The position numbers and the translations under genes were made by a program. The notes beneath the pieces are model-generated. The model was not told the origin of the DNA and made no database searches. It saw only the letters and a program-made list of their open reading frames with translations. From Octopus sinensis (lineage: Eukaryota), in assembly GCF_006345805.1 (NCBI RefSeq), contig NC_043002.1, positions 20,460,001-20,524,000 on the forward strand: a stretch of DNA of 64,000 nt, read 5' to 3'. Of this stretch, positions 6,125 through 63,837 are shown one piece after another. Numbering within the stretch: the first letter of the stretch is position 1; each line of letters starts with the position of its first letter.

Positions 6125-6180
6125 TATGTATGAATGTATGTGTGTGCATATATATATATATATACATTATATATATTTAT

Positions 6181-6299
6181 TTTATAGAAGGAGCTTCTAC
6201 AGGACTAGAACTGTTTCATTCAAAAGAAATCATCAGGAAGCTCCTGATGATTTCTTTTGAATGAAACAGTTTTAGTCCTGTAGAAGCTCCTTCTATAAA
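6181..6299. repeat. Near-perfect ~58-bp-arm palindrome, Penelope-like inverted terminus
   Basis: TTTATAGAAGGAGCTTCTACAGGACTAGAACTGTTTCATTCAAAAGAAATCATCAGGA-agc-reverse complement with one mismatch. Confidence 0.85.
6189..6245 (-). ncRNA. Type I hammerhead ribozyme motif
   Basis: Minus strand: AGGAGCTTC-CTGATGA-TTTCTTTTGAAT-GAAA-CAG-ttctagtc-CTG-TA-GAAGCTCCT; 9-bp stem I, CUGAUGA and GAAA cores, stem III ACAG/CTGT, GUA cleavage triplet; stem II weak. Confidence 0.65.
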
Positions 6300-6370
6300 A
6301 TAAATTAATTTACTCTGCTATGTATTGAGTACCTTATTTACTGTGGTTAACCCCGACTCAACCCGGGACC

Positions 6371-6437
<67 letters not shown>

Positions 6438-7019
6438 AGATATATGTGTATATAAATGTGTGTTGATATATATATATGTGACACTTTTGTTATCATCTGG
6501 AAAGAAGAGGATCTGCACAAAGACTTCAGTACATAATTTATTCGATGAATTACAGTGTTTTACAAACTTTCTCATTCCCATACAATATCCAGAGCAAGAG
6601 CCAGCAAGGAAGTGATGAGGAGGATATAAGAAGAGTGCGTGTAGGCTGACCAGGAAGAGAGGATAGGGAGACTACACTGGACTGTTTAGGTACTAATATG
6701 TCTAAATATTCATATATGCGGTAACCTTAGGTGTGTATGGCACTCATATGGATGCCTGCATGGAGGCATATAGTAGAAAGAGGGAAGTAAGCAAAATATG
6801 TACCCTTACCCTCATCACAGGAGGGGTGTACGAATTGCCAGTTGAAACTGTTCATTTACATTTAAATTAAAATGGCAGTGGTAGGGGAGGGCAGGTGGGC
6901 ATAATGGGTGTACAAACATGGACATTGTGTTCATGATCTGTGCGAATGAATATTAGTCTCCTGATTATTAATACCATGTTAATACACATATACATTCTAA
7001 TCAGCATATTTATTGCATA

Positions 7020-8728
7020 CCATTAATAATCTGCATTTTTTTCCCCAAAATTTAAAGGTCAAAATTCCTAGTGCGTACTATATACGAGGTTAAAAATGAA
7101 AAATATTTTCTAAGCAATGTCCAAGTCTCTATTTGCTGTGAGACTCATTTTGTGATGTTGGGTGCGAAAATACCTTAAGCTAAGCCTGAAAGCAATGAAG
7201 TCATAAAAGAATTGTCCATAACTTGCAGTAAGCAAGATTTATTAAATGTTATTACTGTTATTTCTTTATTTTCTGCAAACAAAATGCACAAAAATGCTAC
7301 ACGACACTTGTGAAGACCTTTTGAGGCAAGTGAAAATCAAGACAAATCAAAATAGATGAACATCAATGGAATTTGTATCGTTGTGATACCAGTACGGTGG
7401 CACACAAGAAAACCATCCGAACGTGGCTGTAGCCAGTACCGCATCGACTGGCCTCCGTGCTGTGGGCATATAACAAACACCATCCGATTGTGGCCGTTCG
7501 CCAGCCTCATCTGGCACCTGTGTCGGTGGCACATAAAAACACCATCCGAAGACCCGGCAAGACTAGTCAGGCCATAACCCGTGGCCCCTATCTGGGACGT
7601 AGTCAGTCCACCTGTGCATACCTTCCTTCCTTCTTGTGACACTTGTGAAGACCTGTTGAGGCAAGTGAAAATCAAATCAAATCAAATCAAAACAAATCAA
7701 AATAGATGAACATCAATGGAATTTGTATCTTTGTGGTACCAGTGCCGGTGGCACACAAGAAAACTATCCGAACGTGGCCGTAGCCAGTACCGCATCGACT
7801 GGCCTCCGTGCTGTGGGCAAGTAACAAACACCATCCGATCGTGGCCGTTTCGCCAGCCTCATCTGGCACCTGTGTCGGTGGCACATAAAAACACCATCCG
7901 AAGACCCGGCAAGACTAGTCAGGCCATAACCCGTGACCCCTACCTGGGACGTAGTCAGTCCACCTGTGCATACCTTCCTTGTGACACTTTTGAAGACCTG
8001 TTGAGGCAAGTGAAAATCAATCAAAACAAATCAAAATAGTTGAACATCAATGGAATTTGTATCTTTGTGGTACCAGTGCCGGTGGCACACAAGTAAACCA
8101 TCCGAACGTGGCCGTAGCCAGTACCGCATTGACTGGCCTCCGTGCTGCGGGCACGTAACAAACACCATCCAATCGTGGCCGTTCGCCAGCCTCATCTGGC
8201 ACCTGTGTCGGTGGCACATAAAAACACCATCCGAGCGTGGCCGTTCGCCAGCCTCGTCTGGCACCTGTGTCGGTGGCACATAAAAAACACCATCCGAGCG
8301 TGGCCGTTCGCCAGCCTCGTCTGGCACCTGTGTCGGTGGCACATAAAATCACCCACTACACTCTCGGAGTGGTTGGCGTTAGGAAGGGCATCCAGCTGTA
8401 GAAACACTGCCAGATCTGACTGGCCTGGTGCAGCCTTCGGGCTCCCCAGACCCCAGTTGAACCGTCCAACCCATGGTAGCATGGAAAACGGACGCTAAAT
8501 GAATGATGATGATGATGATGATGATTTGCATTATGTTATGTATACAATAACGATAAAGAATGTTACCTTATACATTTTTACAAATCAAGGACATTATATA
8601 GACCTCCTTGACTCAAGTTAGAGAAGGGGTGCGTATTATGCACAAGGTTTAAGTTTTTCAGAGGTACAGCCCCCTAAAAATCCCCTGCGTATTATACTCA
8701 AGGGCGGACTATACTCGAGGATTTACGG
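7020..8728. mobile_element. pogo/Tigger-like non-autonomous element interrupted by an RTE 3' region
   Basis: Right terminus GCGGACTATACTCGAGGATTTACGG-TA and internal TGCGTATTATACTC / TGCGTACTATATACGAG subterminal motifs on both sides of the insert; left TIR eroded. Confidence 0.5.
7303..8525 (+). mobile_element. RTE LINE 3' UTR with ~350-bp tandem triplication
   Basis: Unit GACACTTGTGAAGACC...CATACCTTCC recurs at ~7303, ~7638 and ~7983; ends in the RTE terminus and (GAT)n. Confidence 0.85.
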
Positions 8729-9096
8729 TAAACATTATAAAATTAGAGGGGGAGAGTGACATGTGACTTTGGCAAATGGGATATTTATTGAGAAAGGGGA
8801 AGTTTATAAAGACATCGACTGAGTCACATTTAAATAAAATAAAAACTTAGGAACTTAACTGTTAATTCAAGATGCGTTGTTACGTGAATGGCAATTGAAC
8901 AAGTGAGGATATTAGTGAAAAAAACTATTCCTTAAATATACGATCGAATGGAGTGCTAAGGGCCCTATCTGAACGGATGTGTCTCCACATACTTAAACAG
9001 ATGGGGTCGATAAAATAAGTACCAGTCAAGCATTGGGTTGATATAATTGACTTACCCAATCCCACGAAACTGCTGGCCTTGTGCCAAAATTTGAGA

Positions 9097-9131
<35 letters not shown>

Positions 9132-9359
9132 ATTATAATCATTATTAAGACAGCAAGCTGGCAGAATTGTTGGCATGCTGGGCAAAATGCAGAGTGGCAT
9201 TTTGTCCATCTTTACGTTCTGAGTTCAAGTTCTGCTGTGGTTAATTTTGACTTTTATCCTTTCAGGGTTGATAAAATAAGTACCAGTTGCATACTGGGAT
9301 CAATGTAACTGACTGCTTTCTTTCCCACAAAACTTCAGGCCTTGTGCCTTTAGCAGAAT

Positions 9360-9467
9360 GGATCATTATTATTATCATTATTATTATTATTATTACTACT
9401 ACTACTACTACTATTATTATTGTTATTATTATTATTATCATTGTTATGATTATTATTATTATTATTA

Positions 9468-9517
<50 letters not shown>

Positions 9518-9655
9518 ACATGGTAATGTATAATGATAAATATGCTGATTAAAATGTACATGCATATTAATATGGTATTAATAATTGATTATAATAATAT
9601 TATTATTATTAATAATAATAATGATGGTGATGATGATAATAGTAATGATAATAGT
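9360..9655. repeat. (ATT)n/(ACT)n trinucleotide microsatellite
   Basis: Direct reading; source of poly-I/N/Y ORFs. Confidence 0.95.
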
Positions 9656-9674
9656 AATTAAATATTATGACATC

Positions 9675-12343
9675 TTCTTAATTCTTGTGTATATTCTTGT
9701 GTGTATTTCACTGGAGATTCTGGTCTGTCTGTGTGTGCTTGTGTATACTTAACTGGATATTCTGGGTTGTCTGGGATATTTTTGTATTTTTGCTGTAATG
9801 GAATGTGCTGTGTGGGTGTTTGTATGTTACTTACTTCCTTCTTTTTTGAGTTCTTCGGAGGTGGTGGAGAGTTTTTAAAATCCTTCCTCTTTTGCACTTC
9901 CCGGAATCCTTCATCTCTGCTTTCTGCATTTGCTTCTTCTGTGTTTTCCTTTAATTCCTCATTTCTGTTGTTTTCTTCTTGTGTCTCCTCTCCTGGTGTC
10001 TGGCTGTTAAGAAGGGAGACAGTTCACCCTTACGTGCCTCTTCTTTCTGCAGTGGTAGCAGATGGGAGGTCTTCCATCCACCACCGCTCGCAGCTTCGCC
10101 TCATCTGGTGGCTCTGTCTCTTTGGTAATTTCTTGTTAGTTAGTTAGTTAGTTAGTTAATTTGGCTCAAAAGCAAGTAGCAAGGCCATGGAGTTAAGTAC
10201 AGGGTGGTGTTCATGTAAAGAGTTCAGGCCACTTGAGGTCAAGGGAGGCTTTGAACAAAGCGGTCGTCGGCATCTTCACCATCTCGTCTGGCAACTTGTT
10301 CCATGGATCCGCAACCCGGACGGAGAAAGCTCCTTTCCTTCGATTGAGATGAAATGGTCGCAGGTAGAGCTTTTCGGAATGACCCCGCAGCCGATGCTCT
10401 GGAGCAGGAGTGAAGAACAGCTCTTTCGAGAGGTTACACTTTCCGCTTATGATGTTGTGGGCGAGAATGAGATCACCACGGCGGCGGCGTTTTTCAAAAG
10501 AATAAAGGTCGAGCGTCCTCAGCCTTTCTTCATAGGACAAATTTTTGAGACCATGAACCATGCGGGTAGCCAGCTTCTGGACTCTTTCGAGATGCTGCAT
10601 GTCTTTGAGGAGATAAGGAGAAGAGGCTTGAATTCCGTACTCCAATATGGGTCTCACCAGCGTGACATAGAGTGGTAGGAATATGGCTGTTGTGAGCATT
10701 CCGAATGACCGTCGAATCAAGAACAGAATTCCGCGTGCTTTGTTGGCAGCAGGCCCAGTGGGGTGGCCTGCATTGTAGCTTCCAGGCCATGTCCCTGTCA
10801 GTTCGTTTGTTTGGTGCGGCTGACTTGCAGCACTTCTGGGTCCTCCTTTGTTTCTATTAAGATGGCTGCAGGCAGCCGCATCTCATTGATCTTGTGGCAC
10901 GCCCTGCCAAGCCTCACTCTCGCCACACGTTTACTGAGGCAGGTTGGCGGGAGTGCCCATTCTTCTGTTTTCAACGTTTCAATGGAAGCTATAGAAGAAT
11001 GCTTGGAAGATATAAGAAGTGAAACTGAATTTTACTGCAGAGGAAGAAAGTTTGGCACAGTGGAGGTGCACTTCCCTGCTGTGGAGGAGGCAGTAAATTA
11101 CACCACTGTAACATTGAAAACAGAAGAAGGGGCACTCCTGCCAGCCTGCCTCAGTGAGCGAGTGACGGGAGTGTGGATTGGCAGGGTGTGCCACGGGATT
11201 AGTGAGATGTGGCTCCTTGCAGCTGTCTTAATGGAAACAAGGGAGGACCCGGAGGTGCTGCAGGTCAGCTGCACCAAGCAGGTGAACAGATAGGGATATG
11301 GCCTGGAAGTTGTAATGCGGGCCGCCCCACTGGGCTTGCAAGAGATTGCCAAGGAGATGGAGCTGCCAGATGAGGTGACGTTGCGAGTGGTGGTGGATGG
11401 AAGACCTCCCATCTGCTGCCACTGTGGAGGGAGGGGGCGCATAGGGGTGAATTGTCCCCTTCTTAACGGCCGGACGTCGGGAGAGGAGATGCAGGAGGAG
11501 GGTGGCAGAAATGAGGAATTGAAGGAAGGTGCAGGGGGGGGGGCAAATGTGGAGGGCAGAGATGAGGGATTCCGGGAGGTGCAAGGAGGAGGGATTTTGG
11601 AAACTCTCCACCACCTCCGAAGAACTCAAAAACGAAGAAAAAGAAGGAAGTAAGTGGCATGCAAGCGCCCACACGGCGCATTCCATTGCAGCAGAGATGC
11701 AGAAGTGTCCCAGATAGCCCAGAGTATCCTGTTAAGTATGCACAAGCACGCGCGGACAGCCCAGAATCTCCAGTCAAGTATACACAAGCACGCGCAGACA
11801 GCCCAGAGTCTCCAGTTGAATACACACAAGCAGACACACAAGCATTACAGGCCAGTTGTAAACATAGGGAGTATCTGATGCACTAGCGGTCGAACACAGC
11901 AATTTGAGGAAAAAATTGCAAAAATGAAGACAGTAATAAAAATTATAGAGGAGGGTGATTTACGCATACCAGGCATGGAGTGTATAATAATAGACTTAAA
12001 CAATTATAAAAAAATTGAAGGCAAGCTTTGGCGTTGATGTGAACCCACTAGGGAGCGAGGTAAAATATGATTGTCTACCACATGTGATGGAATTTGAACA
12101 ATCGAAACAATATTACATATATTAAGATAAATTAAATTGATGAATGTTGGTATAAAAAAAATGAGGAAAAAATATAATGAAATGGTACTACTCAAGAGTG
12201 AGGTTAGAGTAGCTATTACACCTCCCTTCATTATATAAATCTATTTTCATTCATTCATTTCATATTTTTGACCCCACTTGTATTGTTATGTCTGTCCTTG
12301 TGCCGTTCCCTCTATGTTCAGGCTATTGTGCCTAATAAAAAAT
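9675..12343 (+). mobile_element. Non-autonomous retroelement: LINE ORF1 (zinc knuckle)-derived sequence with a long inverted duplication and LINE/SINE-type 3' tail
   Basis: Left arm ~9675-10134 plus 10749-10985 is the reverse complement of 11103-~11845; loop 10986-11102. Sense frame reads LRVVVDGRPPIC(C/Y)HC..(R/H)..VNC (CX2CX4HX4C knuckle); 42-bp PEYPVKYAQARADS repeats; 3' end 12290-12343 resembles the SINE tail at 44686-44739. Confidence 0.75.
10135..10751 (-). mobile_element. Young CR1-like LINE 3' fragment inserted in the left hairpin arm
   Basis: LERVQKLATRMV..RRRRGDLI..RLRGHSEKL..VADPWNKLP; (TAAC)n tail; nearly identical to 50531-51160. Flanks rejoin exactly (GGTAATTTCTT|GCAGGCCC). Confidence 0.92.
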
Positions 12344-12449
12344 CAGAGAGCATCTTAGAAGTCTCACGAAGTACGTCGTGTGAACACATTGATTAAACCT
12401 CCGCTGCAAAATTTATCTATACCAACCTGTGGCAGGATATAAAAGTGGG

Positions 12450-12790
12450 ACGGAAATTGTAGTTGTGATAACTGCCGGTGGCACGTAAAAAGCACCATCC
12501 GAATGTGGCCGATGCCAGCGCCACCTTGACTGGCTTCTGTGCCGGTGGCACGTAAAAAGCACCAACTGATCATGGCCGTTGCCAGCCTCCACTGGCACCT
12601 GTGCCGGTGGCACGTAAAAAGCACTCACTACACTCACAGAGTGGTTGGCGTTAGGAACGGCATCCAGCTGTAGAAACACTGCCAGATCAGACTGGAGCCT
12701 GGTGCAGTCTCCTGGCTTCCCAGACCCCAGACGAACCGTCCAACCCATGCTAGCATGGAAAACGGACGTTAAACGATGATGATGATGATG
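12450..12790 (+). mobile_element. RTE LINE 3' fragment
   Basis: Three GCCGGTGGCACGTAAAAAGCAC monomers followed by the RTE terminus and (GAT)n. Confidence 0.8.
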
Positions 12791-13107
12791 ATTTTGCCCA
12801 GTGTGCTAACATTTCTGCTAGCTCACCACCCTATATAATAATAATAATAATAATGGTTTCAAATTTTGTCACAAGGGTAGCAATTTGGGGGAGGGGATGA
12901 GTTGATTACATCACCTCCAGTGTTCAACTGCTACTTATTTTATCAACCCCCAAAAGGCTGAAAGGCAAAGTTAACCTCAGTGGAATTTCAACTCAGAACA
13001 TAAAGAGGGACAAAGTACTATCATGCATTTTGCCCAGTGTGCTAACATTTCTGCTAGCTTGCCACCCTATATAATAATAACGATGACAGCGATGATGGTG
13101 GCGGCGG

Positions 13108-13690
13108 CCGTAGCTGCCCTGATGCAGTACCAGGCAGTGGCTCTCATGGCTTCTGATCTTAAATGATTGGAAGTGTTATCATGTACATTGTTTTGTTTTG
13201 GTATATAAGATGGACTACAGCAAATATTCTGCTCAGTACTACAGATTTGCTTGTCAGCTGTTTGATCATAACCAGTTGAGCATGTCCCTTAGTGGCTGAC
13301 GATATGTGCATCTCTGATCACAAGCAGAGGTAGTGGGGGAGCATCCTAGCCACATGTTGAGAGGAATTCTTTGGGGTTTGAATAATTCACCTCTGGAAAC
13401 AATGTTTCATTCAACATCCTTAAACAACCCTCATTCAGGGACCTTTTGAGCTGGATGGCCTACTTGACCTGATGAAAATTCTAACTGGGCTCACCTGCTA
13501 GGTCATGTGCTGTTTATCTTGATATTAGATCACCATGTCATGCACATACGGTTGTGATGCATGTGCCTGGTGTACTCTTATGAGTTGGGTAGTCATGGTG
13601 GGTATACTGGTCTTCGTATATTTTACAACAGCGTCACTTTGATGGCATGCACTGTTCTTTCACTCAATAATAATAATAATAATAATTATA
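13108..13690 (+). mobile_element. Probable non-LTR retrotransposon 3' UTR fragment with (AAT)n tail, clade unassigned
   Basis: GC-richer block ending CACTCAATAATAATAAT; no coding motif recognised. Confidence 0.35.
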
Positions 13691-14551
13691 AATTCTGACA
13701 TCAGCACAAAGGAATTTATATTGTATGTGGAGCATATAATTGTGATCCTGTTGGCCTCATCTACATGATGGATTCTTATATCATTAATAAACATAGAAAG
13801 ATGAAATGTTGTGTTCATGCTATGAGGGAATTAGTCAGTACCAGTAGTCCCAGGACTTCACTGGTACTTTAATCCACCCCTGAAAGAATAAAACGCCAAC
13901 TTGAAATTTTCTGGTTAGGGACCCAGACCATAAAGTGCTGACACAAATACCACAAAAGTTTTCTCCTATGTTCTAAAGATTGTGCCAGCTTACTGCCTTT
14001 AAATGGGTCTTTGATTTAGACAGAAGGCCAACAGTTTGAAGATGAGGGTGTTAGTAAATACCATTGGTACCAGTTCTTGATTGGTACTTTGTTTCAACCA
14101 TAGAGATTTGAAAGGCAAATTTGGCCTCAGCAAGGTTTGAACTTACTTGGAAGAAATATCTGAATGAATTTTTTTCCACTGATATTTTGTTTCTGGTCGT
14201 CATCACTAAATAGTGTAATTTAGTAAAGTGATAGTATTAAAATCATTGTTGTTATTTAGGTTTCATAACTTTGTACATATTTGTGATGAGGTGATCTACT
14301 TTGAAACTAATTAGTAAAATTAAGCAGGATGTATTTTAGTCTGTATAATATCTATTTAAGCAACTTATCAGACAAATTATTGCAAATTCATTTGAAATCT
14401 CTGTCTGATAAGTTTATTCCACATTCTAATTGTATTTGTATAAGGATTCAACTACAAGAACAGAATTCCAATATCATCTCCAACATAGAAGTTTGGATTA
14501 CAAATGATTTTCAGTCTACCGTAATGGACTAATCAAGTTAATTACCATACA

Positions 14552-14593
<42 letters not shown>

Positions 14594-14680
14594 TAATACA
14601 AGCATACACATATATACATTTCAACAATCAACATATACACGTTAAACGTACTAAACTATAAACTACCCACTTGTTTCAAC

Positions 14681-15574
14681 ATGAATGCAACCCATTTGTC
14701 TGATCCGGTTTTGATTTCAAGATTAATTGTTTTTAGTATGATACCTTTCTTCCTAATTGTGGGACTCGTTGGTAACATATTTGTGATATATATTTATGCA
14801 CGACAGTCCCAGAAAAGCAATGTAGAAACATTCATCCTTGTACTGGCTGTTATTGATCTCATTGGATGTATCTTTGGAATGCCTCTGGAAATGGCTGAAC
14901 TTTATCCTGCAATTCAATCAAATTATTTGTGTAAATTATACAAGTTTATTGTCTTCACCTGTTCTATCATGTCATCCCTCATTCTTCTCACAGTTGCCGT
15001 TGAAAGGTTCAGAAAAATATGTCGTCCACATGGAAAACAAATTACCCAAAACCTACGCCAGAGACTTATTGTTTCCATAGCAATAACATCGGTCATACTA
15101 ATATTACCAGTTATTATCTATAATGAAGGTGTTCCCTTTACCTATGAAAACAAGATATACATGATATGTGATTGTGACCTTAAAAGGTCATCTGTCTGGT
15201 CATATACTCTAGTAGTCTTAATTCTTCACGCTATACTTCTCCTAGCCTTGACTGTACTCTATTCCTTTGTTTGGAAAACTATTACTCAGCGTCTCAGGAA
15301 AAAGCAAAGTAAAGAAGAAGCTCCCAGACAACAAGGAATCAATCACACCATCATTGTACTTGTCTCAATCTCTGTTTTGTATTCTGTCAGTTTTTTGCCG
15401 TTCCTCATCTTCTTTGTCATATATCCATACTGCAAAGATTCTAATTTGTTGCAGATCTTTAAAGTGGTTTTATATCGTAATTGGATACTAAATTCCTCCT
15501 TAAATCCCATGGTGTATGGATTCTGCAATAAAATATTCCGGAAAAGTTTTGTAAATATTTTTACTAGGAGGTAA
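14681..15574 (+). CDS. Intronless rhodopsin-family (class A) GPCR, 297 aa, orphan
   Basis: Seven hydrophobic helices with class A landmarks: TM1 GN (GLVGNIFV), TM2 LAVIDL, Cys at top of TM3 (YLCK), ERF in the DRY position (AVERFRKICRP), TM6 FLP, TM7 NSSLNPMVY (NPxxY), helix 8 FRKSF; N-terminal N-A-T sequon; uninterrupted ATG-to-TAA frame. Confidence 0.93.
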   Translation: MNATHLSDPVLISRLIVFSMIPFFLIVGLVGNIFVIYIYARQSQKSNVETFILVLAVIDLIGCIFGMPLEMAELYPAIQSNYLCKLYKFIVFTCSIMSSLILLTVAVERFRKICRPHGKQITQNLRQRLIVSIAITSVILILPVIIYNEGVPFTYENKIYMICDCDLKRSSVWSYTLVVLILHAILLLALTVLYSFVWKTITQRLRKKQSKEEAPRQQGINHTIIVLVSISVLYSVSFLPFLIFFVIYPYCKDSNLLQIFKVVLYRNWILNSSLNPMVYGFCNKIFRKSFVNIFTRR

Positions 15575-17055
15575 AATTATTTTTGAAATTGAGGAGAAAT
15601 TTTAGGATTTGGTTTACACTACACTTTCAATACAGAGGAATTCTTTCAAGTCGAAGAAACATTTTCTTTACTGACTATTTCCAAAGAAGAATACTGTTGT
15701 TGTTTTTTGTACAATATTGAAAATAACTCAGTTTCAGGTATTTTATAAAATAACCAACTTTCTCATTATTTTTATGATGTTTGGAGAATTATATTTTCTT
15801 TCATAAAATTGGAAAATTTTGATTTCAATCCATGCCAGCATGGAAAGCGGATGTTAAATGATGATGATGATGATGATAATGATGAGCCTTTTAAAATATG
15901 CCATTTATATCCTTGATCCAGTGCCGGTCAAAGGTAGGTTAGTATCGGAAAGGTCTATTTGAACACCAACAGTTTCTCTGTTACATATTTATTCCAGTTT
16001 CTGTTGTTTTATACTTTCTATTAACCCATAACTGTGTATCTGAGTTCTCTTTTAAACTCCAAACTATTTGGATTCTACAGTTTCTGCATTACATATTAAA
16101 TCTGCATTAACAAAATACTGGGAAAAAAAATTGTTGCTATTATCACAGTCATCATCATTATTGCCACTGTCATCATCATCATCACTCTTACGTAAACTTT
16201 TCGTCCTTGAGTTTGTTGGTCAAGTCTTCCACACAGAATTATGTTATTCCTGTCTTTGTATCAACTTTTTTAAATCACAGAATTTTTAGACTGGCCAACC
16301 CATGGAGATCATCATTAATATCTACACGGACATGTTACCTATGCATGTTATATGCTGCTAATAAAGTATTTACTTCTTTTGTGCAATTCATTTGTCAGAG
16401 AAAGGATTTAAAATTAATCCCCTGTGCTTTTAGCAATTCTAATACAATTTCAAAAATAGCAATTAAAATTCTCTTTCAATGAAAATGTTTGATATTCTTT
16501 GCTGAGCAAAAAATTATTTTGAAACCCACCAACTCTTCAATCTTTTATTTTGCATACAGCATTAGCAACTTTTCTACTTATTTAAGAAATAAACACTTTT
16601 AGTTTTGTGATTAACATTGTTCTCATTGTCTCACATTTCAACATTTATTTACATGTCTTTGGTACACACAGTGTATTATATATTGTGTGTGTGTGTGTGT
16701 GCACGTGTATGTGTATTAATATGTTTGATACGTTCAATTTATGGAATATATCCTGTTAGTAAATGTATTAAACCTAGTAATTTTATGTTTTAGAAATTGT
16801 TGTTAATGGATGTGTTGAATTTTACATATATTTTCCTATTTTATTATTGTTGTTTATTTCCATATGACTCCAAATTGAGAAGACTTATTTTATCCAGCAC
16901 TTTTGGTACTCATTTCATTTATCTTCATTTTATCTAACCCTATCCAGGGGTAGAGAACATAAAGTACCATTCAAGTATTGGAATAGTTGGCATCAATTTA
17001 CCTCCCCCTGTCAAAACTGTTGGCCTTAAGGTGGTGAGCCGGTAGAATCATTAGC

Positions 17056-18945
17056 ATGCTGGATCAGGTGATGAAGGTCATGGAGAGGGTCATAGCCCCA
17101 CTAATTAGGGAGAGAGTCTGCTTAGATGAGATGCAGTTCAGTTTTGTGCCAGGTAGAAGCACCGCTGATGCTATATTCCTGGTACAGCAACTGCAGGAGA
17201 AATACCTAGCCAAGGATATACCCCCTATACTTGACTTTTGTGGATTTGGAGAAAGCCTTTGACAGGGTCCCCCAATCCCTAACTGGTGGGCGATGCAGAA
17301 ACTAGGGATTGACGAGTGGTTAATAAGAGCTGTACAGAGACATCGTTAGTAAAGTTAGGGGTGGCAGTGAGTATATTGAAGAATTCTGGGTAGAACTAGG
17401 GGTCCACCAAGGTCAGCTCTCAGCCCCCTCTTATTCATCATAGTCCTCCAGGCAATAACAGAGGAATTCAAGACAGGTTGCCCCTGGGAGCTCCACTATG
17501 TTGATGACCTTACTCTCATAGCAGAATCACTACCAGAACTAGAGAAGAAATTTCAGGTGTGGAAGCAAGGTTTAGAATCGAAGGGCCTTGAAGTCAATGT
17601 TGTAAAAACCAAAGTCCTAGTAAGTAGGAAGGCGAACACATCACAAACCCATTCACATAGATGGCCCTACTTGATCTGTAGAAAAGGTGTAGGTAGAAAC
17701 TCCATAAGATGTACCTAGTATAAGCTATGGATACATAAGAGGTGCAGCAACATCAAAGGAAGGTTAACTGGGAAGATAGCTTTCATGTGTGGCAGATGCA
17801 CAGGGGCAATAAATTCCATCACATGCTAGTGGGAGAAACTAGAAGTAGTCAATAGCTTCCGCTACCTAGGTGACCAAGTCTGTAGTGGAGGATAGATGCT
17901 CAGAGTGCGTCACCACTAGAATAAAAATAGCCTGGGCAAATCTCAGAGAGCTCCTACCTCTACTGGTGACAAAGGGCCTCTCGCTCAGAGTGAAAGGTAG
18001 ATTATACAATGCATGCATGTGTGCAAACTGCCATGCTTTACGGCAGTGAAACATGGGCCACAACTGCTAAGGACATGCGTAGTCGTGAAAGAAATGAAGC
18101 TAGCATGATCCAGTGGATGTGTAATGTCAGTGTGCACACACGACAGATTGTAAGCACCCTGAGAGAAATGTTGGACGTGGGAAGCATCAGATGTGGCATG
18201 CAAGAGAGATGACTGCACTGGTATGGTCATGTGTTACATATGGATGAGGAGAGCTGTGTGAAGAAGTGTCACTCCCAAACAGTACAAGGAGCCACTTGTA
18301 GAGGGAGACCCATGAAGACATGGGATGAGGTGGTGATGCAATGACGAAAGACCGAGACAGATATACTGTGAATGAGAAGACCTGGCAAGAAAAGTGATAT
18401 CACAGCTGTAGCCTACACCAGTGTCGCATAACCAACCTACTTAAAAATGTACCTTTGGATCATTGGGCGACATGCCATGCTTGAGGAGACCTATTGAGTC
18501 AAGCAAATCAAAATCTAATCAAATGCAAATTGTAGTTGTGGCTGATGCCAGTGCTGCCTGGCTCGCAATTAGCACCATTCATGCGTGTGTCATTGCCAGT
18601 GCCGCCTGACTGGCTCCCATGCTGATAGCACCTAAAAAGCACCATCTGAATGTGGTTAATGCCAGCGCCTTCACCCCGACTGGCTCCTGTGCTGATGGCA
18701 CATAAAAAGCACCATCCTAACGTGGCTGATGCCAGTGCCGCCTGACTGGCTCTCGTGCTGGTGGCATGTAAAAAGCACCCACTATACTCTCAGAATGGTT
18801 GGCATTAGGAAAGGCATCCAGGTGTAGAAATATTGCCAGATAAGATTGGAGCCTGGTGCAGTCTCCTGGCTTGCCAGTCCCCAGTCAAACCATCCAGCCC
18901 GTAGCAGCATGGAAAACGGACGCTAAACGATGATGATGATGATGC
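17056..18945 (+). mobile_element. Degenerate 5'-truncated RTE-clade LINE (RT, C-terminus, 3' UTR, (GAT)n tail)
   Basis: MKVMERVI..QFSFVPGRSTADAIF..FVDLEKAFDRVP, GVHQG, ELHYVDDL, AMLYGSETW; many stops and frameshifts; 3' UTR monomers and terminus. Confidence 0.9.
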
Positions 18946-19769
18946 TGAGCAAAATGCTTAGTGGTATTTCATCCGCTTTTACAAAATGAGATTTTTCAGT
19001 AGAGAATTTGTAAAAATGACCTACAGCCATGTAAGGAAACCCTGAGATAGACAAAGACAACAAAAAGTCGATTTTTTACATAGTTTTTAATTATTGTATT
19101 TTGCCTTATTTTTCCATGCTAATACACATACATATACATATATATGCATAAGTATGTGTGTTCATGTATGTATGTATGAAGATGCTTTTAAGCTCTTTAT
19201 ACATTCTTCCATATTTAGTATAATATCATCCATCCCCTCTTTTCGTATTTGACTTCTCTTTCACTCTCTACTTTTTTTCTTTCTTTGTAATTCCTAGTGA
19301 AAGTTTTATGTGTTTTGTATCTCTCTGAGACCTTGAAGCTAATAAATAAAAGATTGTAATTAGGGAGTGAAGGAGCAGTGCATACCACCAAAGTGACACT
19401 GGGGTACAAGTATACGAAGCCCAATATACCCATCATAACTACCTGTCTGATAAGGGTACATCAGACACAAGCTTCACAACCATATGTGCATGACGGTGCT
19501 ATGTTTTTTTGTCTGTCGTCACTTCATCTAATGTCACTTTGTCTGTCTTTTTGTCAAATGTTTTCTTTGTCCAACTTTTTGTCAATTTTAAATAAACTCT
19601 TTAGAAAACAAGGTGAAATATCTCTAATGATATATTCTCCGAAATTTAAGAAGCCTCATTATAAGATTGTTATTATCGTTCTTTTTCCTTCTGTGTTAAC
19701 AGTTTTACTTCCTCTTTTTCCTTCTCTCTCTTAAGTACGGTTCTGTGTGTAGAGAGTGCTGCAAATTTA

Positions 19770-21908
19770 GAGTACACATTTTTTATTTACCCATCCCAAA
19801 ATGACAAAGCAGTTGATGTAAGTAATTACATCAATGATTTTCATTCAAGCATAAGGTTGAATTCATATCAAGGTCTTTGAAAGAATAGTTCGTGGAAAAC
19901 TGGTTGAGTTCCTGGAATCTAACAATCTGATGAATTGCAACCAGCATGGATTCAGGTTAGGTAGATCATGTCTTTCCCAACTACTGGCACACCATGACCA
20001 AATCCTAGAAAATCTAGAGAATGGATACAACACATGTTATTTACCTCGACTTTGACAAGGTAGATCATGGCATCCTGGGTCACAAACTTCGAAAGCTAGG
20101 AGTAGGAGGAAAAGTTGGTACATGGATACATGAGTTCCTTACAAATAGAACTCAAACAGTCACTGTGAATGGAACCCATTCAACACCATCACCTGTGACC
20201 AGCAGTGTTCCTCAGGGCACAGTACTCGGCCCAATCCTGTTTCTCATCCTCATCTCTGACATAGATGAAGATACAACCAGCAACGTCTCATCCTTTGCTG
20301 ATGACACCAGGGTCATGAGACAAATCAAAGACGAGGTGGATACAGAGGCCTTACAAAAGGACCTGACCACCATATATAAATGGCAGGAAACAAACAACAT
20401 GTTCAATGATAAGAAGTTTGAACTAATTCGCTACGGAACAGATCAAGATCTGAAAAATACAACAAACTACAGAAACCCATCAGGACAACAAATAATGGAA
20501 AAACAGTATGTGAAAGATTTAGGCATCCACATGGGAACCAGCCTAAAATTCAGAGAACACCTTGACTCAGTCTGTCTTACTGCAAGAAAGTACAGTGGGT
20601 GGATCTTGCGCACCTTCAAATCAAGAGATACCTCGACAATGAAAACCCTCTGGAACAGTATGATACTTCCAAAGATTGACTACTGTTCTCAGTTGTGGTC
20701 ACCAACAACAAAGGGCCAACTATCTAAGATGGAATCGCTCCAAAGAAATTTTACCTCATACTTCTCAGAAACGAGGGACCTGGACTATTGGCAAAGACTC
20801 AAAACCTTGAAGATGTACTCAATAGAAAGAAGATTTGAGCGATACCGAATTATATACATTTGGAAAATGATAGAGCAAAAGGTGCCAAACTTTGGTATCA
20901 AAACCTACCACTCACTGCGCCACGGAAGACGCTGCCAGCTACCACCAATCAACAAAAAGGCTGGCCAGGCTGCAAAAACCCTGCGAGAGTCAAGTCTGTT
21001 GGTTCGAGGAGCACAACTATTCAACTCCATTCCGGTACATGTCAGAAATCTATCAGGATGCAGTGTGGAATCATTCAAATTGCAGGTGGTAGATACTTAA
21101 GCACCATTAGAGATGAACCCCATCTCCCAGGATATACACAACGAGCACAAACTGACTCAAACTCGCTCCTACACATATCAAAATTAAACAGAGAATACAA
21201 CCTGGCAACCACACCAGACTCTGAGGGTGGAGTCTTCGACTTGGCCTGAGCATGGACTCAAACTCAAATGAAATGAAATAACAAAACTAGGAAAAGGATA
21301 CTGGAGATGTGAGAAAAGAAAGCTATGTTCAGTGCATATTCACACCGTAATGGAAAACAATGAGCCAAAAATTATTTATTTTTCTAGTGAGCACCTCCAT
21401 CCAGCTGATGTAGATTTGTTAAATGCTAGAAAAGCAGTTGCAGAAATAAAGTATGAAGCTGTGGAAAACATTGCAGCAATTTTGCATAGCATAATAGCAG
21501 CTAATTTTACGCGGCTAACAGAAAATACTTACTTACAACTTCCTTGCTTGCCTCTGCTTTCCAGGATTATTCAAAGGTGCTAACAAAAAAAATTCAGGAT
21601 TTCTCACTAATCAGGGGCTAGGACTGGTTTTGAAATACCTGAAGAATATTGTAAACTTGATAATGGCGAACAGTTTCTGAGATACAATTTGGGTATCGAG
21701 GATCAACAGCGTATACTAGTATTTGCATCAGAAAGTGCTCTTCAGGGTATAGCATCATATCATCATTGGGCATGTGATGGAACATTCAAAAAAATGTGAT
21801 GGAACATTCATTCAGTGGTTTCAGCTGTTTAGCATTTGTGTACAAGTTAAAGGTAGCAGTTTTCCATGGGTCTTTGCATTGCTGCCGAATAAAACAAAGC
21901 AGATATAC
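19770..21908 (+). mobile_element. MULE/Mutator transposase remnant interrupted by a LINE
   Basis: After 21281: GYWRCEKRKLCSVHIHT..EHLHP (FLYWCH-like), RILVFASE..WACDGTFK, FQLFSI, FPWVFALLPNKTKQIY (MULE domain motifs). Left boundary uncertain. Confidence 0.8.
19866..21280 (+). mobile_element. 5'-truncated CR1/L2-clade LINE RT fragment
   Basis: QHGFRLGRSCLSQLL, IYLDF, SVPQGTVLGPILF, SFADDTR, KDLG, LESLQR-like MESLQRNFT; (GAAAT)n tail. Confidence 0.92.
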
Positions 21909-21911
21909 TTT

Positions 21912-22135
21912 TTTTACTTTTACTTGTTTTAGTCATTTGACTGCGGCCATGCTGGAGCACCACCTTTAGTCGACCAAATCAACCCCAGGACTTATTCTTT
22001 GTAAGCCCAGTACTTATTCTATCGGTCTCTTTTTGACGAACCGCTAAGTGACGGGGACGTAAACACACCAGCATCAGTTGTCAAGCAATGCTAGGAGGAC
22101 AAACACAGACACACAAACACACACACATACATATA
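21912..22135 (-). mobile_element. tRNA-derived SINE 3' half, truncated by an RTE copy
   Basis: TTTTACTTGTTTTAGTCATTTGACTGCGGCCATGCTGGAGCACC..; reverse complement of the family at 33072-33510. Confidence 0.8.
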
Positions 22136-22136
22136 T

Positions 22137-25100
22137 AAGCCTGACTGCCACCTTATAACTTATCAGTCAGGGGACTCCGCTAGCGAAATAGACTTCATCC
22201 TCACCAGACAGCGGGATGCAGGGTCGCTCTTAAATACAAAGACCCTCCCGGGTGAAGAGTGTATCCCTCAGCATAGGCTAATAATTAGTGACTTTAGGCT
22301 TGAGGCCAGAAGGACTCCAAGAAACAGACCAATCCAGAAAAGAAGGATTTGGAAGCTAAAGAACCCTTCACATGGTCAGAGATTTAGGGATATCCTCATC
22401 AAGAAATTTGATGAGAGGGAGGAGGAGCTACAGACGTCGGACATAGAAGGTAGCTGGAAATTCCTACGGGACAGCTTGCTGAGTGCCACAGACCAAGTCT
22501 GTGGATGGTGCAAAGTTCCTTCCAGACCTAGAGTTACGTGGTGGTGGAATAGTGCAGTAGACAAAGCCATTAGTTCTAAGAAACAGGCCTGGAGAGCCTG
22601 GAGGGATGGGGGTACCGTACCAAGTAGCCAAAAGGGAGGCCGGGCGGCAGGTATACATAGCCAAAGATATAGCAGAAAAGAAGTTTGCTAATGTCCAGCG
22701 ACGTGAGGACCAAAGAACTGAGGTATTTCGTATTGCTAGACAGTGTGTGAGAGAAAATAGTGATGTTACAGGAGAGAAATGTGTCCGCATGGATGATGGG
22801 GCACTTGCCTTTAATGTTGGTGAAAAGAAAGAGGCTTGGAGAAGCCATTATGAAAGACTGCTGAATGTGGAGAATGAATGGGAGGAGGAGAGCCTGCCAA
22901 ATGTTGACCCAGTAGAGGGACCAGCTATCTGAATAGACGGCTCCCTAGTAGATAAAGCAATTAAGGATATGAAACCGGGTAAAGCCCCCGGCCCATCAGG
23001 AATCACTGCTTAGATGCTTAAAACAGCTGGTTATGCGGGCTATGGCCTAGTCACCCGTATTGTTAACCAGGTAGTTCATAATGGAGTCATACCCAATGAC
23101 TGCCCATCCAAATTACCTTGGATCCCGGAACATCTTGCTGTGCTTGAGGAAACCCGTCGAGTCAAGTGCATATACATGAACATCGAACCAAATATCAATG
23201 GAAACAGTAGCTGTGATACCTGTGCCGGTGGCACATAAAAAGCACCATCCGAACGTAACCGATGCCAACCCCGCCTCGAATGGCTTCTGTGCCGGTGGCA
23301 CATGAACATCGAACCAAATATCAATGGAAACAGTAGTTGTGATACCTGTGCCGGTGACACATAAAAAGCACCATCCGAAAGTGGCCGTTGCCAGTGCAGC
23401 CTCCACTGGCTTCTGTGCCGGTGGCATACAAAAAGCACCATCCGAACGTGGACCGATGCCAACCCCGCCTCGAATGGCTTCTGTGCCGGTGGCACATGAA
23501 CATCGAACCAAATATCAATGGAAACAGTAGTTGTGATACCTGTGCCGGTGACACATAAAAAGCACCATCCGAACGTGGCCGTTGCCAGTGCAGCCTCCAC
23601 TGGCTTCTGTGCCGGTGGCACATAAAAAGCACCATCCGAGCGTGGCCGACGCCAGCACCACCTCGACTGGCTTCTGTGCCGGTGGCACATAAAAAGCACC
23701 AACCGATCGTGGGATCTCGGAACATCTTGCTGTGCTTGAGGAGACCTGTTGAGTCAAGTGCATGTACATGTACATGAACATCGAACCAAATATCAAGCCG
23801 GTGACACATAAAAAGCACCATCCGAACGAGTGCAGCCTCCACTGGCTTCTGTGCCGGTGGCACATAAAAAGCACCATCCGAACATGACCGATGCCAACCC
23901 CGCCTCGAATAGCTTCTGTGCCGGTGGCACATGAACATCGAACCAAATATCAATGGAAACAGTAGTTGTGATACCTGTGCCGGTGACACATAAAAAGCAC
24001 CATCCGAACGTGGCCGTTGCCAGTGCAGCCCCCACTGGCTCTGTGCCGGTGGCACATAAAAGCACCATCCAAACGTGACCGATGCCAACCCCGCCTCGAA
24101 TGGCTTTTGTGCCGGTGGCACATGAATATCGAACCAAATATCGATGGAAACAGTAGTTGTGATACCTGTGCCGGTGACACATAAACAGCACCATTTGAAC
24201 CATTTGAACGTGGCCGTTGCCAGTGCAGCCTCAACTTGCTTCTGTGCCGGTGGCACTTACAAAGCACCATCCGACCGTGACCGATGCCAAAACCGCCTCG
24301 AATGGCTTCTGTGCCGGTGCACATGAACATCGAACAAATATCAATGGAAACAGTAGTTGTGATACCTGTGCCGGTGACAATAAAAAGCACCATCCGAACG
24401 TGGCCGTTGCCAGTGCAGCCTCCACTGGCTTCTGTGCCGGTGGCACATAAAAAGCACCATCCGAACGTGACCGATGCCAACCCCGCCTCGAATGGCTTCT
24501 GTGCCGGTGGCACATGAACATCGAACCAAATATCAATGGAAACAGTAGTTGTGATACCTGTGCCGGTGACACATAAAAAGCACCATCCGAACGTGGCCGT
24601 TGCCAGTGCAGCCTCCACTGGCTTCTGTGCCGGTGGCACATAAAAAGCACCATCCGAACGTGACCGATGCCAACCCCGCCTCGAATGGCTTCTGCGCTGG
24701 TGGCACATAAAAAGCACCATCCGAACGTGGCTGATGCCAGCACCGCCTCGACTGGCTTTTGTGCTGGTGGCACATAAAAAGCACCAACCGATCGTGGGAT
24801 CCGGACATCTCGCTGTGCTTGAGGAGACCTGTTGAGTCAAGTGCATGTAGATGAACATCGAACCAAATATCAATGGAAACAGTAGTTGTGATACCTGTGC
24901 CGGTGACACATAAAAAGCACCACCCGAACGTGGCCGTTGCCAGTGCAGCCTCCACTTGCTTCTGTGCCGGTGGCACATAAAAAGCACCATCCGAACGTGA
25001 CCGATGCCAACCCTGCCCCGAATGGCTTCTGTGCCGGTGGCACATAAAAAGCACCATCCGAACGTGGCCGATGCCAGACCCCTCTGGCACCTGTGCAGGT

Positions 25101-25285
25101 AGCACGTAAAAAGCACCCACTACACTCGCGGAGTGGTTGGCGTTAGGAAGGGCATCCAGCTGTAGAAACACTGCCAGATCAGACTGGAGCCTGGGGCAGC
25201 CCCTGGCTCCCCAGACCCCGGTCGAACCGTCCAACCCGTGCTAGCGCGGAAAACGGACGTTAAACGATGATGATGATGATGATGA
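22137..25285 (+). mobile_element. RTE LINE copy: endonuclease end and linker, RT deleted, greatly expanded 3' UTR array
   Basis: EIDFIL..PQHRLIISDF (APE end), TWWWN, GKAPGPSGI, GVIPND; at ~23103 jumps straight into 3' UTR repeats; RTE terminus and (GAT)n at 25115-25285. Confidence 0.88.
23150..25115 (+). repeat. Higher-order tandem array (~190-200 bp unit of three ~60-67 bp monomers)
   Basis: GAACATCGAACCAAATATC marker at ~23178, 23304, 23498, 23776, 23933, 24124, 24326, 24516 and 24853; monomers end in TGTGCCGGTG(G/A)CACAT. Confidence 0.92.
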
Positions 25286-25585
25286 TATATATATATATAT
25301 ATATATGAATGTATGTGTGTGTGTGTGTATATATATATATAGTTTCAAGATACATCTCATGGATGCTGTCAGATGCATCAGCTGTGATGCTTCTGGAGTT
25401 TTAGGTGGGATTCAGGTCTTTCACCATCAGACTCCTTCACCCAGTTGACCCAGCTGGGGTTGATCAAGTTCCAACAAGCACCCCAGTAACAGCAAACCAC
25501 TGGTCTTCCCCCTTTCTCCAAAGCCACCTAGTTGCCCCCCGCCTCTCTCTATATATATGTGTATGTGTGTGTGTGTGTGTGTGTA

Positions 25586-26315
25586 GACATGGCTGTGTGA
25601 TAAGAAGCTTGCTTCCCAACCACATGGTTCTAAGTGCAGTCCCTCTGTGTGGAACCTTGGTTAGTGTCTTTCATTATACTCTCAGGCCCACCAAACCCTT
25701 GTGAGTGTATTTGGTAGAAGGTTGCTGAAAGAAGCCTGACATATAATATATATCTGTTTGTGTGTGTTGTGTCTGTGTTTGTCCCACAATATCGTTTGAC
25801 AACCAACGTTGGTTTGATTGTGTCCCGGTAATTTAGGGGTTTGGTAAAAGCGATCATTTGAATAAGTACAGGGCTTAAAAAAAATACTGGCATTCATTTG
25901 GAAATTACTATTTTTAAATCTCACAACGTGAGATATTCAGCAACAGTATTTTGTAGTAAAGATTGTTTGCCAACATAACATGGCAGTCCTGGTTTAGGAC
26001 GAATATTGCTGTAATTTAGCCCCAGGAGACATTGTCTCCAGTTGGCTATACAACACGTTCTGTGCCTTTATATTTTCAAACAAGGTGTCGCTAGATTCCC
26101 TTTTTTGAAAATATAAGGACACAGATCATTTGTATAGCCAGCTGGAGATGATGTCTCCTGGGGCTAAAATACAGCAACATTCATTCTAAACCAGGACTGT
26201 CATATTATGTTGGCAAACAATCTTTACTGGCATTGATTTGTTCAACTAAAATTGTTCAAGGTGGTGTCCCAGCATGGCCACAGTATCATAACTGAAACAA
26301 ATAAAAGATAAAAGA
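25586..26315 (+). mobile_element. Older tRNA-derived SINE carrying a foldback insertion
   Basis: Head ATGGCTGTGTGATAAGAAGCTTGCTTCCCAACCAC, tail CAGCATGGCCACAG..CTGAAACAAATAAAAG. Confidence 0.7.
25954..26229. mobile_element. Foldback MITE with ~130-bp inverted arms
   Basis: AGTAAAGATTGTTTGCCAACATAA... / ...TTATGTTGGCAAACAATCTTTACT; arms pair almost to the centre. Confidence 0.85.
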
Positions 26316-63454: not shown

Positions 63455-63716
63455 CAGCGTGGAAGGTGTTTATAAGCCATTTAAAAACACACAAAAACTG
63501 TTAGATTCAATTCAACATTTAAATTTAATTTGCCAAAATATTTTTGTCACTTTGAGAACGTAACCTGTTCACTGAGAAAATTCTGTATACTGCACAGAAT
63601 TTTGTCAGTGAACAGGTTGCGGTCTCAAAATATTTTGGCAAATCTAATTTAAATGTTGAATTGAATCTAATGGTTTTTGAGTGTTTTTAAATGGCTTATA
63701 AACACCTTCCACACTG
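63455..63716. repeat. ~120-bp-arm palindromic element (foldback MITE or Penelope-like terminus)
   Basis: CAGCGTGGAAGGTGTTTATAAGCCATTTAAAAACAC... / ...GTGTTTTTAAATGGCTTATAAACACCTTCCACACTG. Confidence 0.85.
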
Positions 63717-63837
63717 CAATTGTTTTTGTTCCAGCACACGATCTCAGATCAGGTCACTTGTTATGCAAGTACATCTCTATAACTGGTATTCGAGTACTAT
63801 TTTTTTACACCTTGTTTCACATTTATGTATTTACTCT

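What the first reader, a model, noticed from the sequence alone, without database searches (positions are those of the whole stretch)
9675..11845. Long hairpin whose arms differ almost only by G-U pairs: candidate ADAR hyper-edited RNA written back into the genome
Seen: with the CR1 insert (10135-10748) removed, a ~0.7 kb left arm is the reverse complement of 11103-11845 around a 117-nt loop. Hand alignment of the inner arms (~235 bp) gave 32 differences forming G-U in the + strand RNA, 3 forming A-C and 7 transversions; the outer arms gave about 70 G-U against 1 A-C. The antisense reading of the left arm keeps an A-rich protein (ETQEENNRNEELKENTEEANAES; CYHCRKKRH), while the right arm is its A>G version (EMQEEGGRNEELKEGAGGGANVEG; CCHCGGRGR). 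Adenosines directly 3' of G are nearly always spared (GAAAAC>GAGGGT, GAAAGAAG>GAGGGAGG, CAGAAT>CAGAGT), and none of the 13 left-arm G gains in the inner stem has a 5' G. The loop and downstream sequence stay A-rich. The palindromes at 25954 and 63455 show no clear skew. Established: ADARs deaminate A to I (read as G) on both strands of long dsRNA, disfavour a 5' G, and are very active in coleoid cephalopods. Inference: a hairpin transcript was hyper-edited, reverse transcribed and integrated, making RNA editing heritable. Alternative: a functional hairpin/endo-siRNA locus under selection that tolerates only wobble pairs.
Basis: partly seen in the sequence, partly recalled or inferred. Interest (0 to 1): 0.93.

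Follow-up and report, generated by a model that had tools for sequence, protein, structure and literature searches.

The report
RNA edits fossilised in retroduplicated DNA
A 12-kb stretch carrying a receptor gene seems to have been copied to a new place in an animal genome by way of RNA, and about 110 RNA-editing changes made on a hairpin in that RNA became permanent DNA changes, while the parent copy stayed unedited.

Summary
The hairpin is real: 110 G-U against 4 A-C differences between its arms, the only such outlier among 293 inverted pairs, and present in contigs of four public runs. An unedited parent copy lies 1.1 Mb away in a tandem GPCR cluster. Against it, 107 of 372 stem adenosines read G on the + strand in both arms, versus 1 of 41 in the loop and 34 of 3136 in flanks; a 5' G protects (5/81 vs 102/291). 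This is an ADAR hyper-editing footprint. The unit written back is probably not the hairpin alone but a ~12-kb unspliced block with the GPCR gene, fused at its 3' end to a same-strand, similarly aged RTE-like LINE, between TA runs. A second daughter of the cluster has the same build and splits one repeat in two. Best reading: LINE-primed reverse transcription jumped onto an edited long transcript. Main anomaly: the distal 226 nt of the left arm are unedited (1 of 34, 14 expected). No RNA evidence was obtained.

The parts
9675..9900 (+). Distal left arm: pairs with the right arm but is almost unedited (main anomaly)
   Evidence: 1 of 34 A changed, 14.0 expected from sequence context
9901..10134 (+). 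Middle left arm, edited
   Evidence: A>G 10 of 37 against the parent
10135..10748 (-).
   Evidence: parent aligns across the gap; none of the 9 listed differences to other copies is an A>G gain, 99 rows of that table not shown
10749..10985 (+). Inner left arm, edited
   Evidence: A>G 10 of 42
10986..11102 (+). 117-nt loop, unedited; joined to the left arm over a 3-nt microhomology
   Evidence: A>G 1 of 41; junction read
11103..11830 (+). Right arm, heavily edited
   Evidence: A>G 86 of 267 in 11103-11790, further changes to about 11818; 83 right-private A>G, outgroup majority A at 75
10986..12345 (+). Old dispersed retroelement-like repeat (ORF with CCHC knuckle) that supplies the arms; class not settled
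   Evidence: 47-48 matches in the genome, lower bounds; other copies match on to about 12340; zf-CCHC in one copy; none of 26 other loci holds it as an inverted pair
6478..22137 (+). Daughter block: unspliced copy of C6:19,324,522-19,336,325 (parent), 1.1 Mb away, opposite orientation
   Evidence: 179 differences in 10148 columns outside the hairpin; only two copies found
14681..15574 (+). Single-exon rhodopsin-family GPCR copy with a late frameshift
   Evidence: 7tm_1 E 1.6e-31; 97% to parent gene, 1-nt insertion shortens the C-terminus
22138..25285 (+). 5'-truncated RTE-like LINE fused to the block's 3' end, with an internal jump at 23102 and a (GAT)n tail
   Evidence: endonuclease + RT in a close copy; 5 private changes in 955 nt
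6373..6477 (.). TA/TG run at the 5' junction (target half)
25286..25340 (.). TA/TG run after the LINE tail (other target half, inferred)
   Evidence: continuity of the two flanks could not be shown

Best explanation
An old inverted duplication of a repeat sat upstream of one gene in a tandem GPCR cluster. A long unspliced transcript running through it on the GPCR sense strand folded a ~0.7-kb hairpin, and ADAR deaminated about 30% of its adenosines on both arms. In a germ-line cell an RTE-like LINE began target-primed reverse transcription at a TA run 1.1 Mb away, copied part of its own RNA, jumped onto this transcript and copied about 12 kb, reading inosine as G. The daughter kept the edits as DNA; the parent locus stayed unedited and later (or in another allele) lost most of its right arm. 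The unedited distal left arm needs one extra step: a further template jump to an unedited RNA or to parent DNA, or later gene conversion from the parent. Shown: direction, strand, confinement and context of the changes; parent-daughter relation; LINE fusion in two daughters. Inferred: transcription, ADAR as the enzyme, reverse transcription, single event, the extra step.
For: Polarity and confinement: 107/372 stem A vs 34/3136 flank A, p 4e-80; loop 1/27 editable A vs 102/291, p 4e-4. 5' neighbour rates U .46, A .40, C .22, G .06, p 3e-8, matching the upstream-G depletion in PMC5625713 and PMC2873906 (passages). Edited strand = GPCR sense = LINE sense. Parent sits in a four-gene tandem cluster, the edited copy is a lone daughter. 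Hairpin older than the edits: 8 derived states shared by parent and left arm, yet the parent's arm and its right-arm remnant are unedited, so the edits came late and in one lineage. LINE fused at the block's 3' end; the parent has no LINE there; its age (5/955) fits half the block divergence (0.88%). Second daughter at C6:35,644,864-35,650,533: 5.7 kb, same sense, fused to the same kind of LINE tail, flanks are two halves of one repeat (62 of 91 left-flank hits adjoin right-flank hits), ages 3.3% and 7/252. Only 5 LINE tails met 348 TA runs in 554 kb, so two chance insertions at breakpoints are unlikely. A_deamin-family genes with open frames are present.
Against: Left arm 9675-9900 is unedited (1 of 34, 14.0 expected, 0 of 100,000 simulations) while its partner is edited at 29/83 editable sites; one copy of one RNA does not give this. 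The parent no longer has the long hairpin, and has about 90 nt of the repeat that the window lacks, so the template allele is inferred, not seen. 3' neighbour A is the least edited class (19/87 after removing 5'-G sites), whereas PMC5625713 reports a downstream-A preference for invertebrate hyper-editing. These LINEs do favour TA runs (5 of 24 tails). No target-site duplication can be told from a TA run, and the window's two flanks could not be linked. The A>G excess outside the hairpin (34 vs 15 T>C, p .006) splits between both lineages when polarised and is not support. 12 kb is far longer than the spliced chimeras in 10.1101/2025.02.02.635956 (section 24). The second daughter stops short of the hairpin and carries no editing signal (A>G 27, T>C 22), so its template could have been DNA.
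Confidence: 0.7

Rival explanations
1. The block was duplicated first (as DNA, or LINE-coupled but DNA-templated). Later a cDNA of the daughter's own ADAR-edited transcript replaced a tract from about 9900 to at least 11820 in place, for example while repairing a break at the palindrome. Still ADAR plus reverse transcription, but by local conversion.
For: Explains the sharp unedited distal left arm as the end of the tract and the central deletion with microhomology. The repeat's own 3' end at about 12340 is in sense and could prime.
Against: Needs two rare events. Does not explain why the hairpin gathered no edits for a comparable span before the duplication nor, if the block was a DNA copy, the LINE at the breakpoint of two daughters.
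Confidence: 0.16
2. No reverse transcription: ADAR deaminated the + DNA strand directly, where the transcript of one arm hybridised to the displaced DNA of the other arm, and changes built up over generations.
For: ADARs can edit DNA in RNA:DNA hybrids in model substrates (PMC12925331, passage). Predicts + strand, stem-only changes and more on the right arm. One G>A difference at an edited site each in X8 (11319) and X1 (11468).
Against: The older shared history of the hairpin shows at most 4 such changes against 107 afterwards; four runs hold nearly the same edit set; both reverted sites are CpGs created by the edit, so decay explains them; sharp boundary at about 9900.
Confidence: 0.06
3. 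A functional hairpin/endo-siRNA locus in which selection tolerates only wobble pairs.
For: The + strand still folds almost fully.
Against: Selection cannot raise a rate: 29% of stem A changed against 1.1% in flanks; C>T, which also gives G-U, numbers only 10; transversions are not purged (14 in the stems); 5'-G avoidance has no basis in pairing; a 614-nt insertion splits the arm.
Confidence: 0.02
4. Assembly or polishing artefact (edited RNA reads written into the assembly).
For: One or more of the runs may be the source of the assembly, and run types are guessed or unknown.
Against: Edited arm on contigs of 4 runs from 3 studies and 4 organism labels, with run-specific differences in X8; depth over the LINE insert is that of genomic DNA.
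Confidence: 0.01

Closest known systems
ADAR-type A-to-G hypermutation of avian retroviral RNA recovered in proviral DNA (Felder 1994; Hajjar and Linial 1995; seen only through review PMC12925331, section 30)
   Same: A>G in an inverted-repeat region, near half of the A, fixed by reverse transcription
   Different: There a virus in infected cells copying its own RNA; here a host germ-line locus, a cellular transcript, non-LTR machinery, and an unedited parent in the same genome
APOBEC 'DNA editing' of retroelements fixed in vertebrate genomes (PMC4866542, passages)
   Same: Deaminase clusters frozen into genomic copies and found by comparing copy and source
   Different: G>A on cDNA of LTR elements, reported absent from 19 invertebrates; here A>G, confined to a duplex, with 5'-G avoidance
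RNA/LINE chimeric retrocopies made by template switching (U6/L1, mRNA/L1; 10.1101/2025.02.02.635956, section 24 and passages)
   Same: Cellular RNA 5', LINE 3' with its tail, same orientation, source locus lacks the LINE
   Different: Known 5' parts are short and spliced; here 12 kb and 5.7 kb unspliced with a whole gene and flanks, RTE-like LINE, looks like a segmental duplication
Retroprocessing of edited RNA in plant mitochondria and kinetoplastids (recalled, no call)
   Same: Edited RNA state becomes the genomic state via cDNA
   Different: Organellar, C-to-U or U-indel, site-specific and in place; here nuclear A-to-I hyper-editing
Drosophila hairpin-RNA (hpRNA) loci (recalled; search listing only)
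   Same: Long inverted repeat rich in G-U
   Different: Here one-directional hypermutation with an enzyme context, no sign of selection on pairing

Membership tests
ADAR hyper-editing footprint | A>G on one strand only, in both arms of the duplex | tested here: met
   107 A>G vs 6 T>C, 5 G>A, 10 C>T; 21 left, 86 right; outgroups agree at 75/83 and 16/20
ADAR hyper-editing footprint | Confined to double-stranded RNA | tested here: met
   loop 1/41, flanks 34/3136; but one paired zone is unedited
ADAR hyper-editing footprint | Depletion of G 5' of the edited A | tested here: met
   5/81 vs 102/291, p 3e-8
ADAR hyper-editing footprint | Downstream-A preference reported for invertebrates (PMC5625713) | tested here: not met
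   3' A .22, C .46, G .46, U .29 among non-5'-G sites; different normalisation from the paper
ADAR hyper-editing footprint | ADAR gene in the genome | tested here: inconclusive
   17 A_deamin matches, several in open frames; dsRNA-binding domains not checked, family also holds ADAT1/ADAD
ADAR hyper-editing footprint | Locus transcribed and edited in RNA | not tested
   only contigs were laid
RNA/LINE chimeric retrocopy | 3' part is a LINE with its natural tail, same sense as the captured RNA | tested here: met
   window 22138-25285 and second daughter
RNA/LINE chimeric retrocopy | Source locus lacks the LINE at the junction | tested here: met
RNA/LINE chimeric retrocopy | Whole unit flanked by a target-site duplication or splitting one target | tested here: inconclusive
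   met for the second daughter; for the window only TA runs on both sides
RNA/LINE chimeric retrocopy | Both parts of the same age | tested here: met
   5/955 vs 0.88% per lineage; 7/252 vs 3.3% pairwise; wide error
RNA/LINE chimeric retrocopy | Captured part spliced or otherwise RNA-processed | tested here: inconclusive
   no intron loss, largest parent-only gap 33 nt outside the hairpin; the edits are the only RNA mark
APOBEC DNA editing | G>A on the element's sense strand | tested here: not met
   direction is A>G by parent and outgroups
hpRNA / endo-siRNA locus | Pair-preserving change of all kinds with mismatches purged | tested here: not met
hpRNA / endo-siRNA locus | Phased small RNAs | not testable with these tools
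   no small-RNA data

The most novel reading that the evidence does not exclude
RTE-like LINEs in this lineage routinely jump onto long unspliced germ-line transcripts and paste whole genes with their flanks elsewhere, so some apparent segmental duplications behind its GPCR expansions are RNA copies; ADAR edits ride along and become heritable, and they can be used genome-wide as a dye that marks RNA-born duplications and records germ-line ADAR specificity.
Probability: 0.45. Interest if true: 0.92.

Novelty: new variant of a known kind. Interest (0 to 1): 0.83.

Why it matters
It is a clean natural experiment: unedited parent and edited daughter in one genome. It shows (1) that A-to-I hyper-editing can be written into nuclear germ-line DNA, a route usually left out when A>G substitutions at editing sites are explained; (2) that a 12-kb, intron-blind duplication with a gene and its upstream DNA can be RNA-born, which standard retrocopy screens (intron loss, poly-A) would miss; (3) a cheap genome-wide test: inverted pairs with G-U skew, and blocks fused to LINE 3' ends. 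The edits here fall in dead repeat sequence, so no adaptive effect is claimed. My 10 literature searches listed no paper describing such a germ-line case; the library lacks most subscription journals and no supplements were read.

Tried and rejected
No RNA holder listed for the stretch; no evidence either way. Scan of 765 kb for runs of 8 or more same-type mismatches found no second ADAR-type cluster; nearly all other runs were microsatellite misalignments or pairings within this repeat family, so frequency is unknown. A>G excess outside the hairpin: suggestive but about 11 window-derived and 13 parent-derived when polarised, many sites without outgroup; one three-site cluster at 18177-18180. 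Old inverted repeat pairs inside the block (76-82%) show no editing; low power. Linking the window's two flanks through a shared repeat failed: 0 of 12 copies of the right-flank repeat carried the left flank. Class of the arm repeat: Pfam gave only zf-CCHC in 1 of 6 proteins, no longer homologues, Atlas hits unnamed, a PRE_C2HC cluster at 0.85, fold pLDDT 33, no PDB match; left as retroelement-like. The GPCR copy on C2 is too old to read junctions. Insertion of an already edited hairpin before the duplication was rejected because the parent shares the insertion site and is unedited. A flip model for the parent's arm was not supported (1 shared state vs 8). Hajjar and Linial 1995 could not be read.

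Full report
Observation. Alignment of the arms gives 32 G-U, 3 A-C and 7 transversions in the inner stem (10749-10985 with 11103-11339) and 78, 1 and 6 in the outer stem (9694-10139 with 11335-11790). Among 318 inverted pairs of 100 nt or more within 12 kb in 554 kb of neighbouring and parent DNA, 293 had 10 or more transitions; they sum to 3478 G-U and 3345 A-C, and the two hairpin segments are the extreme cases. The edited right arm and the junction of arm and loop are on contigs of all four runs laid, from three studies. Run types are guessed or unknown and one may be the assembly's source, but run X8 has its own differences. The feature is real DNA.

A parent copy. The arm sequence belongs to an old dispersed repeat with 47-48 scored matches. 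One match, 1.1 Mb away, shares both flanks: window 6478-22137 is an inverted copy of C6:19,324,522-19,336,325, with 179 differences in 10,148 filtered columns outside the hairpin (simple repeats and columns near gaps left out). That locus lies in a tandem cluster of four same-strand GPCR genes; the window's GPCR is a lone copy with a late frameshift. The window copy is therefore the daughter. The parent has the left arm and only about 115 nt of the right arm.

Direction and context. Parent to window, on the + strand, the stems show 107 A>G of 372 A, with 10 C>T, 6 T>C, 5 G>A and 14 transversions; the loop shows 1 of 41 and the flanks 34 of 3136. Twenty-six other loci as outgroups back the ancestral A at 75 of 83 right-arm sites and 16 of 20 left-arm sites. 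Rates by 5' neighbour are U 31/68, A 48/119, C 23/104, G 5/81. Upstream-G depletion is the shared ADAR mark in PMC5625713 and PMC2873906 (passages read). The 3' neighbour pattern (C and G high, A low) does not match the downstream-A preference PMC5625713 reports for invertebrates. A rate 27 times background cannot come from selection, and pair-breaking changes are not purged.

Timing. Parent arm and window left arm share 8 derived states that the right arm lacks, against 1 clear state shared by parent and right arm; some may be CpG homoplasy, but the long hairpin most likely predates the duplication. The parent's centre holds a 20-nt piece of a common repeat, so both copies look like deletions from a longer ancestral hairpin. 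The parent's left arm and right-arm remnant are unedited. The edits thus came at or after the duplication, in the daughter only, after a long quiet period. Edits at 11337-11352, opposite the LINE insert at 10135-10748, suggest the insert came later (inference).

Route. The block's 3' end, inside a CA/TA run where the parent continues differently, is fused to a 5'-truncated LINE on the same strand; it has an internal jump at 23102 and ends in (GAT)n before a TA run; the 5' end of the block also abuts a TA run. A close family member encodes endonuclease and reverse transcriptase; the label RTE is recalled from the layout, not tested by a tree. The piece has 5 private changes in 955 nt, compatible with half the block's divergence. 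A second, older daughter of the same cluster (C6:35,644,864-35,650,533) has the same build: TA run, 5.7 kb of unspliced parent in GPCR sense, a same-sense LINE 3' end with (GAT)n, TA run; its flanks are the two halves of one common repeat, and block and tail ages agree roughly. These LINEs like TA runs (5 of 24 tails), but 348 such runs were counted in the same DNA, so two independent hits on breakpoints are unlikely. The simplest reading is target-primed reverse transcription that switched from the LINE RNA to a long transcript of the cluster. In the window's case the ADAR marks show that at least 9900-11820 came from RNA; for the second daughter the template could have been DNA.

What does not fit. 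The distal left arm (9675-9900) has 1 edit in 34 A where 14.0 are expected, though its partner is edited. A further template jump, or later conversion from the parent, is needed; divergence along the block is uneven (3/969 at 13000-13999 against about 3% in other bins), which allows conversion but does not show it. In-place conversion by an edited cDNA explains this zone better and is the main rival. The template allele with the window's hairpin is not in this assembly. The window's flanks could not be shown to be one target. No RNA was examined. No second edited case turned up in 765 kb.

Comparison. It works like the A-to-G hypermutated inverted repeats of avian retroviruses (review PMC12925331, section 30 and passages; the original papers not seen) and is the A-to-I counterpart of APOBEC footprints in retroelements (PMC4866542, passages; that screen reported none in invertebrates and was built for G>A in LTR elements). 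Its build is that of RNA/LINE chimeras (10.1101/2025.02.02.635956, section 24 and passages), but unspliced and much longer. RNA-templated write-back of ADAR edits into germ-line DNA has been proposed speculatively (PMC12941027, passages). I found no description of a fixed germ-line case with an unedited parent in 10 searches of an open-access library. Unchecked notes of this scan report ADAR-like A>G in L1, LINE and LTR copies in other genomes; they are leads, not support, but suggest the editing footprint alone is recurrent. The distinctive part here is the host-gene block and the parent-daughter pair.

Verdict. Observation confirmed; ADAR editing followed by reverse transcription about 0.86 over both routes; whole-block LINE-primed retro-duplication 0.70. 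New variant of known kinds. Interest 0.83.

Noticed in passing
G000:C6:35,644,864-35,650,935 (L151, L152): Second daughter of the GPCR cluster: 5.7 kb unspliced block fused to an RTE-like 3' end, inserted as one unit into the TA run of a common repeat
   Followed up: yes
G000:C6:19,307,571-19,339,477: Tandem cluster of four single-exon rhodopsin-family GPCR genes; further dispersed copies on C2:35.74 Mb and C6:35.65 Mb
   Followed up: partly
window 14681-15574: Differences between daughter and parent GPCR look mostly amino-acid-changing (not counted formally), plus a frameshift near the end
   Followed up: no
window 7302-8524, 10135-10748, 19854-21278: Three LINE insertions in the daughter block and none of that size in the parent over the same time
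   Followed up: partly
window 13000-13999: Only 3 differences in 969 columns between daughter and parent: constraint upstream of the GPCR or recent conversion
   Followed up: no
window 18177-18180: Three A>G within 4 nt, two of them window-derived by outgroups, outside the known hairpin
   Followed up: partly
L003:700-1300, L020:2700-2900, L006:2900-3100: The arm repeat family shows similar sequence before its 5' end and after its 3' end (terminal repeats or head-to-tail arrays); ORF with CCHC knuckle, no RT seen; class unknown
   Followed up: partly
window 6180-6300, 25955-26228, 63450-63721: Near-perfect palindromic elements without G-U skew, all outside the daughter block
   Followed up: yes
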